IMG/VR virus record: IMGVR_UViG_3300043436_000818
Span: 1 to 61,996 of that record
DNA length: 61,996 nucleotides
From: a virus
Lineage: Duplodnaviria; Caudoviricetes
Direction: 5' to 3' (one strand)
Shown: positions 1 to 61,996 of the stretch, in pieces
How the letters are laid out: each line of letters starts with the position of its first letter
Position numbering within the stretch: position 1 is the stretch's first letter
Made by a program: the position numbers and the translations under genes
Notes under the pieces: generated by a model
Databases searched by the model: none
Told to the model about the DNA's origin: nothing
What the model saw: only the letters and a program-made list of their open reading frames with translations

Positions 1-157
1 AATGAGCAACAATAAACAAAGTATGAAACTATACACTAAAGAAGACTTTTTAAAAGCCGCTGAATTTTGCGAAGTGTCAATGATAGATGCGAAATATATA
101 ATTGAACGCATTGATGAAGTAAGCGACCCCATCGAACTACCAAGTGATGAGGAGATA
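1..157 (+). repeat. 157-bp exact repeat (copy at 31636-31792; first 127 bp also at 61870-61996)
   Basis: Direct comparison from aatgagcaacaataaacaaag to gatgaggagata. Confidence 0.95.
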
Positions 158-283
158 CGAGAAGAGCGATTATTACAATTTCCTGATTCTGAATATGCTA
201 ACAGGGCAAATGATAGACTTGCCTTTTATTGTGGCGCAAAATTCGTAATAAACAAATTCGGAAGTGATAATGAAATGGAGTAA
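2..283 (+). CDS. Hypothetical mosaic mini-protein
   Basis: N-half matches the 31637 ORF, C-half matches the 57604 ORF. Confidence 0.7.
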   Translation: MSNNKQSMKLYTKEDFLKAAEFCEVSMIDAKYIIERIDEVSDPIELPSDEEIREERLLQFPDSEYANRANDRLAFYCGAKFVINKFGSDNEME

Positions 284-837: not shown

Positions 838-850
838 ATACCTATATTTG
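819..850 (+). promoter_or_regulatory. Bacteroidota-type primary sigma promoter
   Basis: GTTG-N20-TATATTTG (843-850). Confidence 0.65.
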
Positions 851-854
851 AAGA

Positions 855-954
855 GTTAACTGAGATGTCGCATATCTCGAAAGTTACAAGATTTTTGCCC
901 GATTGGGTTAGTCTGCGATGCGACCGCAACTAATTCAGTTGGGCGTTTTTTTTT
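855..954 (+). ncRNA. Structured leader RNA with two hairpins, complementary 7-nt loops and a U-tract
   Basis: Loops GTCGCAT (867-873) and ATGCGAC (918-924); covarying counterpart at 59614-59711. Confidence 0.8.
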
Positions 955-955
955 A

Positions 956-31434: not shown

Positions 31435-31640
31435 GCAACGAAACACAACAAACAATAGTTCAGTGGATTAGACACCAAATAAAACAACAAGGTGTTAGTC
31501 ATTATTTTACAACAAGGGAAATACTTGATAGAGCTGAACAAATGGAAAATGAGCAACGTAAAAAAATTTGGAACGAAGCATTAAAATCAGTTGAAAAAAA
31601 ATTAGAATTATTAAAAGAAATCTACGGAGGTAACAAATGA
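31431..31640 (+). CDS. QTAVEW-like mini-protein
   Basis: QQTIVQW, AEQMENEQ, YGGNK end. Confidence 0.65.
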   Translation: MSNETQQTIVQWIRHQIKQQGVSHYFTTREILDRAEQMENEQRKKIWNEALKSVEKKLELLKEIYGGNK

Positions 31641-31792
31641 GCAACAATAAACAAAGTATGAAACTATACACTAAAGAAGACTTTTTAAAAGCCGCTGAAT
31701 TTTGCGAAGTGTCAATGATAGATGCGAAATATATAATTGAACGCATTGATGAAGTAAGCGACCCCATCGAACTACCAAGTGATGAGGAGATA
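31636..31792 (+). repeat. Internal copy of the 157-bp repeat (A/B junction)
   Basis: Identical to 1-157. Confidence 0.95.
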
Positions 31793-32611: not shown

Positions 32612-33202
32612 GTGCTAACATTGGAACACATAGCCCACATGGATGTCAAATGGAGGAAGATGGCTAATTACCTTGGTGCAAGGTGGGGGGATATTGACGA
32701 TTGTGTTCAAAATATGTATTTAAAATTAGCGGAAATACAGGAAACAGAGGGTTCATTGCAACGATTGGAAACACCATCAGGTGGTGTGAATACCTTTTAC
32801 ATTTTTAAAATTCTACAATCGGCAGTTATTAACGTATATCGTGCAGAGAACAAGGTATATGACCATGAGGCACAATTTAACCCAATAGAATCTCCCGAAG
32901 AATCCGAATACAGGTATCAACAATTGATGGCACGGATTAAGGAGGTAATTGACACGATGCATGAATATGACCAAATGATTTTGGAATTGTATTTTGTCTA
33001 TGGGCATAGTTTACGGCAAATTGAAAAGCGTACAGGGATAACAGTTACATCGGTTTATAACACCTTGAAAAACGCCAAACAACACATTAAAAACCATTCA
33101 AAAGAATTATATGAGCAATACATACAACAGAAAGCAGACGAAGAAACCATCGCAAGGATTGGGGGATTCGGTGGAGAAGTTCACGGAAGCGACTGGGATT
33201 AA
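32612..33202 (+). CDS. ECF-like sigma factor
   Basis: DDCVQNMYLKL; YDQMILELY...SLRQIEKRTGITVTSVYNTLK. Confidence 0.8.
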   Translation: MLTLEHIAHMDVKWRKMANYLGARWGDIDDCVQNMYLKLAEIQETEGSLQRLETPSGGVNTFYIFKILQSAVINVYRAENKVYDHEAQFNPIESPEESEYRYQQLMARIKEVIDTMHEYDQMILELYFVYGHSLRQIEKRTGITVTSVYNTLKNAKQHIKNHSKELYEQYIQQKADEETIARIGGFGGEVHGSDWD

Positions 33203-53336: not shown

Positions 53337-54623
53337 ATGCCCGATCAGAAAATAACGCAACTAACTGCGATAACCACAATTGATAATTCCGACCCACTAC
53401 CCATAGTGGATTTAACGGATGATACTACCAAAAAAATTACCATTGCACAATTAAAGGCACAAGCTCCCGTACAATCGGTAGCAGGTAAAACGGGTGCAGT
53501 TACATTGGCGGCATCGGATATTGGTGCAGGTACTGTGGACAATACCGAATATGGGTATTTAAATGGCGTTACCTCCGCAATCCAAAACCAATTAAATGCA
53601 AAACAAGGTGCATTGACATTAACAACAACGGGTTCAAGTGGTGCAGCTACGTTGGTAGGTGATACATTGAACATCCCACAATATAGTGGAGGTGGTTCAA
53701 TTCCTGATGGAGATAAGGGAGATATAACCGTAAGCAATAGCGGTGCAACTTGGACAATTGATAATGGAGTTGTAAGCGATGCAAAAATAGCCACGGGCAT
53801 TGATGCCGCTAAGATTGGTGCAGGTACGGTGAGTAATACTGAATTTGGTTATTTGGATGGGGTAACGAGTGCGATTCAAACGCAATTAGATTCTAAGGTA
53901 GACGAAAACGCAGCGATTACAGGAGCAACAAAAACTAAAATAACTTACGATTCTAAGGGTTTAGTAACCGCAGGAGCAGACGCAACCACTGCGGATATTG
54001 CCGATAGTTCAAATAAGCGATATGTAACCGATGCTCAATTAGTAGTTATTGGAAATACAAGCGGAACGAATACGGGTGATAATGCAGTAAATAGTTTATA
54101 TAGCGGATTGGCTACGAGCAAACAGGACACACTTGTAAGCGGTACCAATATTAAGACAATTAACTCTACATCATTGTTAGGGACGGGTAATATATCCGTA
54201 GCCCCTGCGAGTGGAATTGATGCAACTGCAATTGGTTCGGGTTCTGTATCAAATACGGAGTTCGGGTATCTCGATGGCGTTACGAGTGCAATCCAAACGC
54301 AAATCGACACCAAAACAAATAAACTAATTACCGCTAACAGACAGACTGCATCCTACACATTGGTTGCATCTGATGCGGATAAGTTGGTGGAAATGAATGT
54401 AGCAAGTGCTAATAACTTGACCGTACCTGCATCGGTATTTACAGCAGGGACACAGATTTTATTGGCACAATACGGAGCAGGACAGACCACAATCGTTGCA
54501 GGTTCAGGGATGACAATAAGAAGCAATGGCGGTAAATTAAAATTATCGGCTCAATATAGTGGAGCTACGTTGGTTTTCATATCGGCTACGGAAGCGTATT
54601 TATTTGGGGATATTGCGTCATGA
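53337..54623 (+). CDS. Tail fibre-like protein with three internal repeats
   Basis: IG.G.V.NTE(Y/F)GYL(N/D)GVTSAIQ.Q three times. Confidence 0.78.
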   Translation: MPDQKITQLTAITTIDNSDPLPIVDLTDDTTKKITIAQLKAQAPVQSVAGKTGAVTLAASDIGAGTVDNTEYGYLNGVTSAIQNQLNAKQGALTLTTTGSSGAATLVGDTLNIPQYSGGGSIPDGDKGDITVSNSGATWTIDNGVVSDAKIATGIDAAKIGAGTVSNTEFGYLDGVTSAIQTQLDSKVDENAAITGATKTKITYDSKGLVTAGADATTADIADSSNKRYVTDAQLVVIGNTSGTNTGDNAVNSLYSGLATSKQDTLVSGTNIKTINSTSLLGTGNISVAPASGIDATAIGSGSVSNTEFGYLDGVTSAIQTQIDTKTNKLITANRQTASYTLVASDADKLVEMNVASANNLTVPASVFTAGTQILLAQYGAGQTTIVAGSGMTIRSNGGKLKLSAQYSGATLVFISATEAYLFGDIAS

Positions 54624-57607: not shown

Positions 57608-57855
57608 AACTATACACAGAGGATCAAGTTGTAAATGCTTTACAAAAAGTATTTTTAGAATCAATAACATTTGAAGATGTTAACGAGGTTGTTAGAAATT
57701 TAACACCCATTGAACTACCAAGTGAGGAGGAGATACGAGAAGAGAGATTATTACAATTTCCTGATTCTGAATATGCTAACAGGGCAAATGATAGACTTGC
57801 CTTTTATTGTGGCGCAAAATTCGTAATAAACAAAATACAAGGAGGTAACAAATGA
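57604..57855 (+). CDS. PIELPS-family mini-protein
   Basis: C-half matches 2-283; GGNK end. Confidence 0.7.
   Translation: MKLYTEDQVVNALQKVFLESITFEDVNEVVRNLTPIELPSEEEIREERLLQFPDSEYANRANDRLAFYCGAKFVINKIQGGNK
57706..57834 (+). repeat. 129-bp repeat shared with 128-256
   Basis: Three mismatches seen; encodes PIELPS...CGAKFVINK. Confidence 0.9.
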
Positions 57856-58984: not shown

Positions 58985-59392
58985 ATGAGCAACAATATAA
59001 TTGAAACAATCAACACAACCCTGTATAATGCGATACAGGGCAATATCTCACCATTTGATACATACATAGACCTAAAAGAGGTAGAAAATGCCTTAAATGA
59101 TGCTATAAATGCGTTAAAAGAGGCTGCAATGGATGAGGCAATCAGGTACAATGGACAACAACACCGTGGGTATGAGATAAAGGTAGGTAGTGTTGGAGGT
59201 CGGTATTCCTATGACCATATACCTGAATATGTAGAACTCAAAGAACAATTGAAAGGTATGGAATCAAGTTATCAGGATGCATTTAAGCAATACGAAAAAG
59301 GATTGCAGATTGTAACCGATGATGGTGAATTGATGCCAATTGCAAACTATAAACCTAATGCAATAAGTATCCAATTGAAGAAAAAGTTATAA
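58985..59392 (+). CDS. Conserved phage hypothetical protein
   Basis: Coiled coil, RYSYDH, VTDDGE. Confidence 0.7.
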   Translation: MSNNIIETINTTLYNAIQGNISPFDTYIDLKEVENALNDAINALKEAAMDEAIRYNGQQHRGYEIKVGSVGGRYSYDHIPEYVELKEQLKGMESSYQDAFKQYEKGLQIVTDDGELMPIANYKPNAISIQLKKKL

Positions 59393-59421
59393 AAAAATAG
59401 GGGGTTATTACACCCCCTATA
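59391..59421. terminator. Hairpin, possibly a bidirectional terminator
   Basis: ATAGGGGG...CCCCCTAT preceded by an A-tract. Confidence 0.7.
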
Positions 59422-59476
59422 AATCTATGAACGGATAATTTTGAAAACAATCGGCACAAATATAATGAATTTCTAT

Positions 59477-59577
59477 AAACAAAAACAGCCCCGTAAGGAG
59501 CTGCAATTTGTAACGGCATCAGTCAGTCCGTTTGATAATTTTTGTTTACATTTTAGAAGGATGTGTTTAACGACTGC
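59477..59577 (-). ncRNA. Putative ~100-nt divergent small RNA
   Basis: Minus-strand TATATTTG (59589-59582) and minus-strand terminator CAGCTCC-TTAC-GGGGCTG-TTTTT. Confidence 0.45.
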
Positions 59578-59601
59578 GGTACAAATATAAAATTATTTTC
59601 G

Positions 59602-59609
59602 TATATTTG
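59602..59609 (+). promoter_or_regulatory. -7 promoter element upstream of leader RNA B
   Basis: TATATTTG 4 nt before GTTAACT, as in genome A. Confidence 0.65.
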
Positions 59610-59613
59610 TATT

Positions 59614-59711
59614 GTTAACTGGAATGTGAGAGATTCCGAAAGTTAAAAGACTATTGCCCGTTGGGTTTGCGTGTACTCTCACTACCGCAGATTCGATGGG
59701 CTTTTTTATTT
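59614..59711 (+). ncRNA. Structured leader RNA (counterpart of 855-954)
   Basis: Loops GTGAGAG (59626-59632) and CTCTCAC (59676-59682). Confidence 0.8.
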
Positions 59712-60458
59712 ATGGAAGAAACAAACTATTTTGTAATATTTCCAACCGAGTTACTGGAAGTATTAACGCCCCGACAAGCAATATTAATCGGGATCATCAC
59801 AGGTATGGCAAAAAAACAAGGTTACGCATACCCAAGCAACCAAACATTATCAAACCTATTGAACGTGAGTATTGATTGTATTAAACGTGATTTAGCGGAA
59901 TTGGAGGAAAAGAAACACATTTATCGTGAAATCATTAGGAACGATAAACAAGAAGTAATACAACGCAGAATTTACCCTACGCATTTAAAACGCACCGAGG
60001 TGGGTGCAGAAATACCCCGAGGGGTGGGTGCAAATTTACACGGAGGGTCGGTGCAAAAATCCGCCATAGATAATAATAATAGTTATAATAATAAATTAGA
60101 TAAAGATAATTATATAACTATCGCAGGGCGATTGTATGATAGGGATGAACTTTTTGAACTATGTTGGAAAGCATATCCAAGAAAAGAGGGAAAGGCCGCA
60201 GCACGGAAAACGTGGGGGAAATTGAAAGTGGAGGATATCCAGTTAATACAAAAGCATCTACCATTATTTAAAAAAGAAAGTTCCGCAAAAGAAAAAAGAT
60301 ACATCCCACATTTTTCAACCTACCTAAACCAACGCAGATTTGAGGATGAGTTAGAACCATCCAATATGGGCGGCATCCTAATGGATAAAATAAACAAGCT
60401 TACTAATGAAATCGGTCATTCACTAAATAACACTTTACAAATCATTACAAATCAATAA
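59712..60458 (+). CDS. Replication initiator (N-terminal winged HTH)
   Basis: GYAYPSNQTLS...IKRDLAELE; WKAYPRKEGKAAA...HFSTYLNQRRF; internal iterons; start set at ATG 59712. Confidence 0.85.
   Translation: MEETNYFVIFPTELLEVLTPRQAILIGIITGMAKKQGYAYPSNQTLSNLLNVSIDCIKRDLAELEEKKHIYREIIRNDKQEVIQRRIYPTHLKRTEVGAEIPRGVGANLHGGSVQKSAIDNNNSYNNKLDKDNYITIAGRLYDRDELFELCWKAYPRKEGKAAARKTWGKLKVEDIQLIQKHLPLFKKESSAKEKRYIPHFSTYLNQRRFEDELEPSNMGGILMDKINKLTNEIGHSLNNTLQIITNQ
59999..60118 (+). repeat. Putative replication origin B: three 23-24-bp iterons plus an AT-rich tract
   Basis: GGT(G/C)GGTGCA at 59999, 60023, 60046. Confidence 0.72.
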
Positions 60459-61723: not shown

Positions 61724-61884
61724 GAATTGTTGTTAAACACAAAAACACGGAAGTTGTCATCGAGGATGGCGAAACTAAAACCGACACTAATTCCAATCTA
61801 ATCTACTACAATCAAAAGTATTTATTAGAATTGTTGGACAAGATTTTTAAAGAGATTAAAGCATTGGACAATGAGCAACAATAA
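61720..61884 (+). CDS. 54-aa hypothetical protein
   Basis: Near-identical to 31038. Confidence 0.7.
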   Translation: MRIVVKHKNTEVVIEDGETKTDTNSNLIYYNQKYLLELLDKIFKEIKALDNEQQ

Positions 61885-61996
61885 ACAAAGTATGAAACTA
61901 TACACTAAAGAAGACTTTTTAAAAGCCGCTGAATTTTGCGAAGTGTCAATGATAGATGCGAAATATATAATTGAACGCATTGATGAAGTAAGCGAC
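61870..61996 (+). repeat. 127-bp terminal overlap (circular assembly signature)
   Basis: Identical to 1-127; 127 is a common maximum assembler k-mer. Confidence 0.95.

What the first reader, a model, noticed from the sequence alone, without database searches (positions are those of the whole stretch)
59602..59714. Second copy of the leader RNA shows compensatory change in stems and loops (copy B)
Seen: TATATTTG, 4 nt, TTAACT-GGAAT-[GTGAGAG]-ATTCC-gaa-AGTTAA, linker, a 16-bp stem (59656-59671 with 59686-59701, five G-U pairs), a 1-nt bulge, GTA-[CTCTCAC]-TAC, T-tract, ATG 59712. Relative to A, GAGAT/ATCTC became GGAAT/ATTCC and the loop pair GTCGCAT/ATGCGAC became GTGAGAG/CTCTCAC. The GAA bulge, GTTAACT start and GCCCG/TGGGC base are retained. 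The element stays tied to initiator function rather than initiator family. It also shows that the ORF-track start at 59661 is probably wrong.
Basis: partly seen in the sequence, partly recalled or inferred. Interest (0 to 1): 0.88.

Follow-up and report, generated by a model that had tools for sequence, protein, structure and literature searches.

The report
Phage leader RNA with coded kissing loops
A roughly 95-base structured leader RNA sits between a promoter and the replication genes of a group of uncultured lake-water phages, and its two hairpin tips always stay complementary to each other while their sequence changes from phage to phage, which marks it as an undescribed regulatory RNA family.

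Summary
The region 59602-59714 holds a TAnnTTTG promoter box, a 5' hairpin P1 and a long terminator-like hairpin P2 with a T-run, followed by ATG 59712. The 7-nt loops of P1 and P2 are exact reverse complements.

It is not chance. A covariance model finds two sites in the window, at 99.7 and 79.3 bits, against 13.8 bits for the next best. It also finds 63 pattern-selected viral contigs and 55 of 80 loci fetched through the downstream protein alone.

On 51 distinct sequences, all 7 loop-loop pairs show double compensatory changes and 99.7% of cells are paired. This helix was not part of the model. About 19-23 loop codes exist. Rfam has no match.

The element always heads a replication module, whatever the initiator family (DUF6291, HTH_36, Lin1244_N, primase-helicase).

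Two corrections apply:
- **Record structure.** The 62-kb record is two ~31-kb genome units joined at an identical 127-nt repeat. Copies A and B are therefore probably leaders of two related phages. Six near-complete or complete relatives have one copy each.
- **Cassette swap.** A relative with near-identical flanks carries a leader only 58% identical.

Best reading: a terminator-containing leader or attenuator whose fold needs the loop-loop contact. The mechanism is inferred; no transcript data were obtained.

The parts
59602..59609 (+). Promoter -7 box TATATTTG, of the type I recall as the Bacteroidota sigma-A consensus TAnnTTTG. It lies 4 nt before P1.
   Evidence: Read directly. An exact TAnnTTTG ends 3-7 nt upstream in 48 of 52 distinct family members, at exactly 4 nt in 43 of them.
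59614..59646 (+). Hairpin P1. It has a 6-bp base, the conserved 3-nt GAA bulge on the 3' side (59638-59640), a 5-bp upper stem and the 7-nt loop L1 GTGAGAG (59626-59632).
   Evidence: Fold. Covariation in both P1 helices: 6 of 6 and 5 of 5 pairs show double changes.
59647..59655 (+). Single-stranded linker, 9 nt here and 9-10 nt across the family. Its first A and its last two T are nearly invariant.
   Evidence: Column counts.
59656..59701 (+). Long hairpin P2, terminator-like. It has a 16-bp lower stem with five G-U pairs, bulged T 59672, 3 bp GTA/TAC and the 7-nt loop L2 CTCTCAC (59676-59682), which is complementary to L1.
   Evidence: Fold. 17 of 19 pairs show double changes. The L1-L2 helix has 7 of 7 pairs with double changes and 99.7% of cells paired.
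59702..59711 (+). T-run TTTTTT followed by ATTT, directly abutting the start codon.
   Evidence: Read. An ATG lies within 5 nt of the T-run in 47 of 52 distinct members.
59712..60458 (+). Downstream gene of 248 aa with an HTH_36 domain, matching PHROG 270 'replication initiation protein'. The true start is ATG 59712, not TTG 59661.
   Evidence: Family matches. L242 has an in-frame stop 4 codons before the same ATG.
843..955 (+). Homologous element, copy A. Box at 843-850, P1 from 855, L1 GTCGCAT at 867-873, L2 ATGCGAC at 918-924, T-run at 946-954. It precedes the DUF6291 gene 956-1495 and DnaB 1492-2721.
   Evidence: (79.3 bits).
31636..31762 (+). Middle copy of a 127-nt sequence that is identical at 1-127 and 61870-61996. 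It marks the boundary between genome unit P (1-31635, holding copy A) and unit Q (31636-61869, holding copy B).
   Evidence: Repeat family D2. Paralogue synteny at an offset of ~30 kb. Unit Q is collinear with the 31-kb records G006 and G003, and unit P is not.

Best explanation
The element is the promoter-proximal leader of the phage's replication (early) module and contains a built-in intrinsic terminator.

**Proposed sequence of events**
1. A host-type promoter (TAnnTTTG) starts transcription at or next to the first base of P1, about 59614.
2. P1 folds first.
3. P2 plus the U-run then either stops RNA polymerase, releasing a ~95-nt RNA that ends near 59707, or is read through.
4. There is no room for another promoter before the ATG. 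Read-through transcripts are therefore the only mRNA for the initiator and the genes behind it.

Selection maintains a 7-bp loop-loop (kissing) helix between the tip of P1 and the tip of the terminator hairpin. The 3-nt bulge in P1 and the fixed 9-10-nt linker are read as the hinge and tether that let the tips meet.

**Shown**
- the structure
- its strand specificity
- the tertiary pair
- the fixed promoter / terminator / ATG geometry
- the association with replication modules

**Inferred**
- That transcripts start and stop where predicted.
- That the kiss tunes how often P2 terminates. My preferred version: the kiss in cis, held by a taut linker, hinders closure of the GCCC/GGGC base and allows read-through. 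Free terminated leader RNA with the same code competes in trans and restores termination. This would give dosage- or time-dependent shut-off.
For: **Structure and significance.** The fold matches the description (z -4.4, 0 of 200 shuffles). The opposite strand is much weaker. Model R1 finds 2 strong hits in 61,996 bases searched on both strands with filters off, at 99.7 and 79.3 bits. The next best hit scores 13.8 bits.

**Family.**
- 63 of 63 pattern-selected viral loci searched have one hit each. Five chance pattern matches (L004, L008, L030, L035, L036) were left out before that search.
- 53 of 80 loci fetched only through the DUF6291 protein have it at E<=1. Two more, L100 and L114, appear with filters off.

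**Covariation.** 51 distinct rows give 96.7% paired cells, against 72.0% in shuffles (0 of 500 reach it) and 38-50% with slid partners. The loop-loop helix has 7 of 7 pairs with double changes and 99.7% paired. It was not in the model, so the alignment was not fitted to it.

**Loop codes.** 46 of 53 aligned rows have exact reverse-complement loops. The other 7 rows have gapped loop columns; read by eye they show 5-6 complementary bases.

**Geometry.** The promoter box is exact in 48 of 52 members, with 4-nt spacing in 43. An ATG lies within 5 nt of the T-run in 47 of 52.

**Context.** Initiator or primase genes of at least four families follow the element, mostly with DnaB after them.

**Autonomy of the cassette.** Window versus L242: 200 of 200 identical bases upstream and about 99% downstream, but 58 of 100 identical within the element.
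Against: - No transcript evidence was obtained. Only assembled contigs of two possible RNA runs were available, and these cannot show RNA ends.
- The simple terminator scan did not list P2 on the + strand. I attribute this to the bulge 3 bp below the loop, which I did not test.
- No alternative (antiterminator) secondary structure is predicted. The minimum-energy fold and the centroid are identical. A switch would therefore have to rest on the tertiary kiss or on an unknown factor.
- No phage NusG-like protein was found in the record, and no conserved upstream partner gene exists.
- The element is not obligatory for DUF6291 genes. In 25 of 80 loci R1 finds nothing. Three of these have divergent look-alikes by eye, and most of the others sit inside operons without an intergenic space.
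- My distance estimate for a cis kiss is hand geometry, not a model.
Confidence: 0.55

Rival explanations
1. The ~95-nt terminated RNA is a stand-alone small RNA and is the functional product. Read-through into the initiator gene is secondary.
For: - A 5' hairpin plus a 3' terminator hairpin is the usual build of a stable small RNA (my recollection).
- Both loops are displayed on stems, and their codes differ between related phages.
- My hand estimate gives ~60-100 A between the helix bases for a 9-10-nt linker. A fully paired 7-bp kiss with both stems formed is therefore strained in cis (inference).
- phi29-type pRNAs multimerise by intermolecular kissing between identical molecules (abstract of PMC4201828 in the listing).
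- The leader is swapped as a cassette in otherwise identical DNA.
Against: - The ATG abuts the T-run in 47 of 52 members. The downstream gene therefore depends on read-through of this very RNA, which argues that the cis role is not incidental.
- The 7-mers are not enriched elsewhere in the window. They occur 1-3 times each, against 1.4-3.8 expected, so no other target is evident.
- No RNA data are available.
Confidence: 0.15
2. The element is a put-like processive antitermination RNA. The two-hairpin nascent RNA binds RNA polymerase in cis and makes it resistant to terminators further down the early operon.
For: - It is promoter-proximal, has two hairpins and sits at the head of the early/replication operon.
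- One copy per ~30-kb genome was found in 6 of 6 records examined, 5 of them rated 97-100% complete and one 87%.
- The record encodes no NusG-like factor.
- RNA-only antitermination by HK022 put and by EAR is described in passages of PMC11658703.
Against: - The second hairpin is itself followed by a 6-9-nt T-run and looks like a terminator, which put RNAs, as I recall them, do not contain.
- The loop sequences vary freely, whereas put depends on specific nucleotides (recalled).
- This reading gives no obvious role to a loop-loop helix.
- No Rfam family matches the region, even at E<=10.
Confidence: 0.1
3. The element works at the DNA level, as an origin, iteron or operator. The complementary 7-mers would be an inverted repeat bound by the initiator or a repressor, or the hairpins would form in single-stranded DNA at an origin.
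For: It lies next to initiator genes, and an inverted 7-mer repeat is present.
Against: - The stems contain many G-U pairs that are mismatches on the other strand. The fold is -34.9 kcal/mol on the + strand and -19.5 on the - strand.
- Pairing is conserved while sequence is not.
- The same loop code occurs with different initiator families. GTCGCAT occurs with DUF6291 in copy A and with Lin1244_N in L054. GTAGAAG occurs with DUF6291, with an HTH_36-like protein in L015 (no Pfam hit of its own) and with a 74-aa ORF.
- An identical initiator occurs with different codes.
- The promoter box and T-run frame the element as a transcript.
Confidence: 0.03
4. The element is a riboswitch or a protein-dependent attenuator. 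A small ligand or a conserved phage or host protein would bind P1 (the conserved GUUAACU...GAA...AGUUAA part) and set termination at P2.
For: The P1 base and the bulge are the most sequence-conserved parts, with 43-46 of 51 rows keeping the commonest pair. The bulge and linker positions are conserved. The terminator serves as an expression platform.
Against: - Very few conserved unpaired nucleotides are available to form a ligand pocket.
- In divergent members the P1 base covaries and the bulge changes sequence.
- No single conserved neighbouring gene could encode a protein partner.
- The downstream genes are replication genes, not metabolic genes.
Confidence: 0.1

Closest known systems
Same-strand 'immunity' RNAs of phage P4 (CI RNA) and, as I recall, P1/P7 (C4) and N15 (CA)
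   Same: In P4, a short RNA made from the untranslated leader of the replication operon is complementary to sequences in that same leader. It causes premature termination that keeps replication genes off (passage in PMC4825925). The element here also lies in the leader of replication genes, is encoded on the same strand, carries complementary segments within one transcript and has a terminator.
   Different: Here the complementary segments are the two hairpin loops of one ~95-nt unit, and one of them is the terminator's own loop. No processing is implied. The phages show no tyrosine integrase, and 48 of 50 long ORFs lie on one strand, so lysogenic immunity is unlikely. There is no sequence or model similarity.
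Countertranscript-driven attenuation of plasmid rep genes (pT181/pIP501 type) and kissing control by ColE1 RNA I/RNA II or R1 CopA/CopT. All recalled, except that kissing and rep control in pMV158 appear in the listing.
   Same: Expression of a replication initiator is gated by a terminator in its leader. Recognition is by loop-loop kissing of ~7-nt loops. Loop sequence acts as a specificity code.
   Different: Those regulators are antisense RNAs transcribed from the opposite strand. Here both partners are on the sense strand, and no antisense promoter was examined within the element.
HK022 put RNA and other RNA-only processive antiterminators (EAR, canT)
   Same: A promoter-proximal, cis-acting, folded nascent RNA at the head of an early or long operon (passages of PMC11658703).
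   Different: The element contains a terminator-like hairpin with a U-run and a covarying loop-loop helix. No effect on downstream terminators has been tested.
phi29-family prohead RNA (pRNA)
   Same: A phage non-coding RNA with two loops in one molecule that are complementary to each other (abstracts). As I recall, these loops covary between phages.
   Different: pRNA is a packaging-motor component with a three-way junction and 4-nt loop pairing. It has no terminator role and is not a leader of replication genes.
Lysine riboswitch L2-L3 kissing loops (recalled, not looked up)
   Same: An intramolecular loop-loop helix of about 6 bp, made possible by a sharp kink in one helix. The conserved 3-nt bulge in P1 could play that part.
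   Different: There is no conserved ligand pocket. The bulge here is not a canonical kink-turn, because Watson-Crick pairs follow it.

Membership tests
Any Rfam 15 family (including phage antisense/immunity RNAs, Bacteroidota motifs and riboswitches) | A match to the family's covariance model | tested here: not met
   The whole window gave 0 hits at gathering thresholds. Region 59550-59760 in E-value mode gave only 7 chance-level hits at E 1.4-10, all far below their gathering scores.
Intrinsic (factor-independent) terminator | A G+C-rich stem base directly followed by a U-run on the transcribed strand | tested here: met
   The GCCC/GGGC base is invariant or nearly so (41-51 of 51 rows). A T-run of 6-9 follows in both copies. 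The simple scan did not list it on the + strand, and I attribute this to the bulged stem without having tested it. Actual termination is not testable here.
Intrinsic (factor-independent) terminator | RNA 3' ends at the U-run | not testable with these tools
   Only contigs of runs were available. They cannot show RNA ends.
RNA kissing-loop / pseudoknot tertiary pair | Covariation that keeps Watson-Crick pairing between the two loops | tested here: met
   7 of 7 pairs show double changes and 99.7% of cells are paired on 51 distinct rows. The helix was not part of the model used for the alignment. 46 of 53 rows have exact reverse-complement loops.
Classical alternative-hairpin attenuator | An antiterminator helix mutually exclusive with the terminator | tested here: not met
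   A single dominant fold is predicted, with the minimum-energy structure equal to the centroid. The bases flanking L1 and L2 do not extend the complementarity (read).
HK022 put-type antiterminator RNA | Two promoter-proximal stem-loops at the head of early operons | tested here: met
   One element per ~30-kb genome.
HK022 put-type antiterminator RNA | Makes RNA polymerase read through downstream terminators without protein factors | not testable with these tools
   This needs transcription assays.
P4 CI / P1 C4-type immunity RNA | An RNA from the leader pairs with complementary sites in the same leader and causes premature termination | tested here: inconclusive
   Complementary sites and a terminator in the leader are present. 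Action in trans and any effect on termination remain untested.
P4 CI / P1 C4-type immunity RNA | Serves prophage immunity in a temperate element | tested here: not met
   No Phage_integrase match in the record. 48 of 50 ORFs of at least 150 aa lie on one strand. Model R1 gave 0 hits in the 80 representative bacterial-genome loci that were searched, out of 84 pattern matches.
Riboswitch | Conserved unpaired nucleotides forming a ligand pocket, and association with metabolic or transport genes | tested here: not met
   Loops, bulge and linker vary, apart from a few A/U positions. The downstream genes are replication genes.

The most novel reading that the evidence does not exclude
The leader may be a self-titrating, code-specific switch, a sense-strand counterpart of plasmid countertranscripts and of P4-type immunity RNAs.

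- **Early, at low copy.** L1 kisses L2 of the same nascent RNA. Because the 9-10-nt tether is taut, the terminator base closes poorly and the replication genes are read.
- **Later.** Terminated leader RNA accumulates, and its loops occupy the nascent loops in trans. The terminator then closes and the module shuts off.
- **Specificity.** The central three loop bases would act as a specificity code. This would explain why closely related or co-occurring phages carry different codes, and why the 95-nt cassette is replaced inside otherwise identical DNA.
Probability: 0.15. Interest if true: 0.85.

Novelty: new variant of a known kind. Interest (0 to 1): 0.65.

Why it matters
The element would add a well-supported structured RNA family to phages of uncultured freshwater bacteria. 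Their regulation is essentially unknown, and I found no cultured relative. The hosts are probably Bacteroidota, judged from the promoter type, which I recall rather than tested.

A terminator whose own loop is held by a covarying 7-bp kiss to an upstream hairpin is not a described design, as far as my Rfam scans and text searches could show.

If the kiss sets termination, it would be a protein-free way to time or dose replication genes. If the codes act in trans, they would define cross-regulation groups among co-infecting phages.

Practically, the family gives three things. It provides a clean marker for the start of the replication module. It corrects start codons that gene callers place inside the hairpin. 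It also revealed that this 62-kb record is two genomes.

Tried and rejected
No earlier notes were seen.
I used handles instead.
- **Sequence searches with no match:** the phage collection by DNA and plasmids by DNA.
- **Cultured phages with a DUF6291-like N-domain** (Riemerella phages GRNRAP2 and PJN03) lack the element. Their best scores are 8.6 and 11.5 bits.
- **Scan of representative bacterial genomes with the P1 pattern.** It returned 84 pattern matches. Model R1 gave 0 hits in the 80 loci searched, so these are chance matches. The scan used the exact P1 sequence, so divergent prophage copies are not excluded.
- **RNA evidence.** The two possible RNA runs are held only as contigs with small shares. 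Their low or absent cover over 59453-59803, compared with neighbouring bins, says nothing about transcription.
- **Loops pairing with other sites in the genome:** the 7-mers are not enriched.
- **An internal promoter in the linker.** The linker only loosely resembles the -7 box. The column counts give 'AA....TT' rather than TAnnTTTG, so I dropped the idea.
- **A conserved upstream partner gene:** the upstream ORFs fall into several unrelated families.
- **A phage NusG-like factor:** none found.
- **A search for close relatives of the copy-B initiator** gave only 2 near-identical loci, so the 'function not family' claim rests on the other loci.
- **One literature query was rejected** for a term that was too short and was re-sent in longer words.
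- **Supplementary files of papers** were not opened.
Full report
**What is in the sequence.** Reading 59300-60200 confirms each element of the finding at the stated coordinates.
- TATATTTG at 59602-09, then 4 nt.
- Hairpin P1 at 59614-46. It has a 6-bp base, a 5-bp upper stem GGAAT/ATTCC, the 7-nt loop L1 GTGAGAG at 59626-32 and a 3-nt GAA bulge on the 3' side.
- A 9-nt linker.
- Hairpin P2 at 59656-701. It has a 16-bp lower stem with five G-U pairs, a bulged T, GTA/TAC and the 7-nt loop L2 CTCTCAC at 59676-82.
- A T-run at 59702-07 and ATG at 59712.

L1 and L2 are exact reverse complements. The minimum-energy fold is exactly this structure, at -34.9 kcal/mol with z = -4.4, and 0 of 200 shuffles fold as well. 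The complementary strand reaches only -19.5 kcal/mol with z = -2.25, and the middle of P2 is lost. This is what G-U pairs predict for a structure selected on the + strand as RNA. Copy A lies at 843-955 with the same plan and different helix and loop sequences.

**It is a family, and the structure covaries.** A pattern made from the conserved P1 base matched 68 viral contigs. Five are chance matches without the rest of the element. The other 63 all carry the full element. Together with the window's two copies they give 25 distinct 100-nt cores and 7 loop codes, and every core has perfectly complementary loops.

I built covariance model R1 from these 25 sequences, leaving the loops unpaired.
- In the window it finds only the two copies, at 99.7 and 79.3 bits, with the next best hit at 13.8 bits.
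- It finds one hit in each of the 63 loci.

To escape the bias of my own pattern, I fetched 80 loci through an alignment of the downstream DUF6291 protein alone. R1 finds the element just upstream of the gene in 53 of 80, and in 2 more with filters off. Scores go down to 26-38 bits, where P1 has a different sequence.

On the resulting alignment of 53 matches (51 distinct rows), one search gives the following.
- 96.7% of cells are standard pairs, against 72.0% in column shuffles (0 of 500 reach the observed value) and 38-50% when partners are slid by 1-3 columns.
- 35 of 37 pairs show changes on both sides.
- The loop-loop helix, which the model did not contain, has 7 of 7 pairs with double changes and 99.7% of cells paired.

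Its outer pairs are mostly conserved (L1 = G U n n n A G, L2 = C U n n n A C). The central three positions carry most of the variation. One search lists 19 code classes. 46 of 53 rows are exact reverse complements in the aligned columns. The other 7 rows have gaps in the loop columns, and by eye they keep 5-6 complementary bases.

Among the 27 loci without a default-filter hit, the folds I printed show more divergent versions that still keep a complementary pair of segments:
- L100 and L114 have almost no linker and a large internal loop in P1.
- L141 and L147 have a branched terminator with L2 in an internal loop.
- L145 has an extra hairpin between P1 and the terminator.

Most of the remaining loci have the gene inside an operon with no intergenic space.

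**Context.** One search examined 52 distinct members.
- An exact TAnnTTTG box ends 3-7 nt before P1 in 48 of them, at exactly 4 nt in 43.
- Three of the other four differ from the box by one or two bases.
- A TTG lies 14-27 nt further upstream in 39 of the 48.
- An ATG follows the T-run within 5 nt in 47 of 52.

TAnnTTTG with an upstream TTG is what I recall as the Bacteroidota housekeeping promoter, and I did not look this up. The spacing puts the transcription start at about the first base of P1. Because the ATG abuts the T-run, there is no room for another promoter. The downstream gene must therefore be transcribed through P2.

The downstream genes are replication genes of several unrelated families:
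- DUF6291 proteins in most loci.
- HTH_36 / PHROG 270 'replication initiation protein' in copy B and L037. L015 is of the same type by its N-terminal sequence, but has no Pfam hit of its own.
- Lin1244_N in L054.
- A 97-aa ORF followed by a BT4734-like primase-helicase in L060.
- A 74-aa ORF followed by a 206-aa protein in L002.

A DnaB-type helicase usually follows. The upstream genes vary.

**Start codon.** The relative L242 encodes a protein 100% identical from the ATG onward. It has a TAG four codons upstream in the same frame. The start is therefore ATG 59712, and the TTG at 59661 lies inside the P2 stem.

**The record is two genomes.**
- A 127-nt sequence is identical at 1-127, 31636-31762 and 61870-61996.
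- ORFs at 7-25 kb have diverged paralogues at 35-56 kb, in the same order.
- Window 31.5-51.5 kb is collinear at 91-97% identity with two independent records of 31,770 bp (terminal repeats, rated 100% complete) and 31,013 bp.
- Window 0.3-20.3 kb has essentially no nucleotide similarity to those two records.

The record thus consists of unit P (1-31635, holding copy A) and unit Q (31636-61869, holding copy B). Most likely these are two related phages co-assembled through the shared repeat. A real heterodimer is not excluded.

The six ~26-32-kb records I examined each have exactly one R1 hit. Five are rated 97-100% complete and one 87%. 'Copy A' and 'copy B' are therefore better read as the corresponding leaders of two phages. 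The comparison between them remains valid as evidence of compensatory change.

The record has no tyrosine integrase match, and 48 of 50 ORFs of at least 150 aa lie on one strand. The phage occurs in lake-water and freshwater metagenomes from many studies.

**Cassette exchange.** Between the window and L242, the 200 bases before the element are identical (200 of 200) and the 1.8 kb after it are about 99% identical. The element itself is only 58 of 100 identical. It has another P1, another P2 and another loop code.

A pairwise survey of 52 members found further pairs in which the element is more diverged than the two flanks:
- L126 / L142: identities 0.91, 0.76 and 0.96 for upstream flank, element and downstream flank.
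- L131 / L129: 0.95, 0.88 and 0.97, differing by one compensated loop pair.
- L075 against L041, L007 and L052: upstream flanks at only 0.84-0.86, element 0.75-0.76, downstream flanks 0.91-0.94.

Metagenome contigs also break or change partner exactly at the promoter box and just after P1 (loose ends at 59602, 59627 and 59648). The leader therefore behaves as an exchangeable unit.

**How it most likely works.**
- **Shown:** a strand-specific, covarying two-hairpin RNA structure with a loop-loop tertiary helix. It is framed by a promoter box and a U-run and sits immediately before replication genes.
- **Inferred:** transcription starts at P1 and partly stops at P2. Read-through transcripts are the mRNA, and the kiss influences that choice.

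No alternative secondary structure is predicted, so any switch must rest on the tertiary contact or on a factor. My hand estimate used A-form rise and plausible bends at the bulges and at the kiss. With both stems formed and the loops fully paired, it puts the two helix bases about 60 A or more apart. A 9-10-nt linker can only just span that distance.

This fits the tightly conserved linker length and the conserved 3-nt bulge acting as tether and hinge. It also suggests that the kiss and closure of the terminator base strain each other. From this I prefer a model in which the cis kiss lowers termination, and accumulated free leader of the same code restores it in trans. This is inference, and the opposite sign, or a purely structural or stability role, is equally testable. 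Rival readings are weighed in their own sections: a stand-alone or self-assembling small RNA, a put-like antiterminator, a DNA-level site, and a riboswitch or protein operator.

**Comparison with known systems.**
- No Rfam 15 family matches.
- Text searches for kissing loops with terminators in phages or Bacteroidetes, for DUF6291, and for loop-loop contacts with intrinsic terminator leaders returned nothing describing this element. I read listings and abstracts only.
- Functionally closest are leader-encoded, same-strand immunity RNAs such as P4 CI, which terminates the replication operon by pairing with sites in its own leader (passage in PMC4825925).
- Plasmid rep attenuation by kissing countertranscripts is also close. 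I recall these systems; pMV158 appears in the listing.
- RNA-only antiterminators such as HK022 put are a further comparison (passages in PMC11658703).
- The self-complementary loops of phi29 pRNA are another (abstracts).

The element differs from all of these. Both partners are hairpin loops on the sense strand of one small unit, and one of them is the terminator's own loop.

**Limits.**
- No transcript ends, no host and no experiment are available.
- The notes of earlier readers could not be consulted.

Noticed in passing
window 1-127, 31636-31762, 61870-61996: An identical 127-nt sequence occurs three times. The 62-kb record consists of two diverged, syntenic ~31-kb genome units. Unit Q matches independent 31-kb records at 91-97% identity, so the record is probably a co-assembly of two phages.
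   Followed up: yes
window 59387-59589, minus strand: A perfect TAnnTTTG box reads on the minus strand (59589 to 59582). Two minus-strand terminator-like hairpins with T-runs follow it (59504-59485 and 59420-59397), although almost no genes lie on that strand. This is a candidate divergent small RNA of ~100-190 nt upstream of copy B. Its fold is -25 kcal/mol with z = -2.6. The region is identical in L242.
   Followed up: partly
L242 1111-1195 (record G006): A relative with an identical initiator gene and identical upstream DNA carries a very different allele of the leader, with another loop code.
   Followed up: yes
window 32612-33202: Unit Q encodes a 196-aa protein with a Sigma-70 region 4 domain, downstream of the replication module. 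This may be a phage sigma factor.
   Followed up: no
window 59602, 59627, 59648: Contigs from other lake metagenomes change partner exactly at the promoter box and just after P1. One continues with a different loop code. The element is therefore a mosaic joint between phage modules (table 7).
   Followed up: partly
L039, L054, L106, L128, L137 just after the T-run: In several relatives the T-run is followed by ATGCAAAAA(AAA)TG, a 3-4-codon mini-ORF or A-tract, before the real gene start.
   Followed up: no
window 53520-54313: Three diverged copies of an 83-nt unit (69-73% identical) lie inside the 428-aa ORF 53337-54623 (family D5).
   Followed up: no
window 128-256 and 57706-57834: A 129-nt stretch is 98% identical between the first gene of unit P and a small gene near the end of unit Q. 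The 93-aa ORF 2-283 is therefore a mosaic of two unit-Q genes.
   Followed up: no
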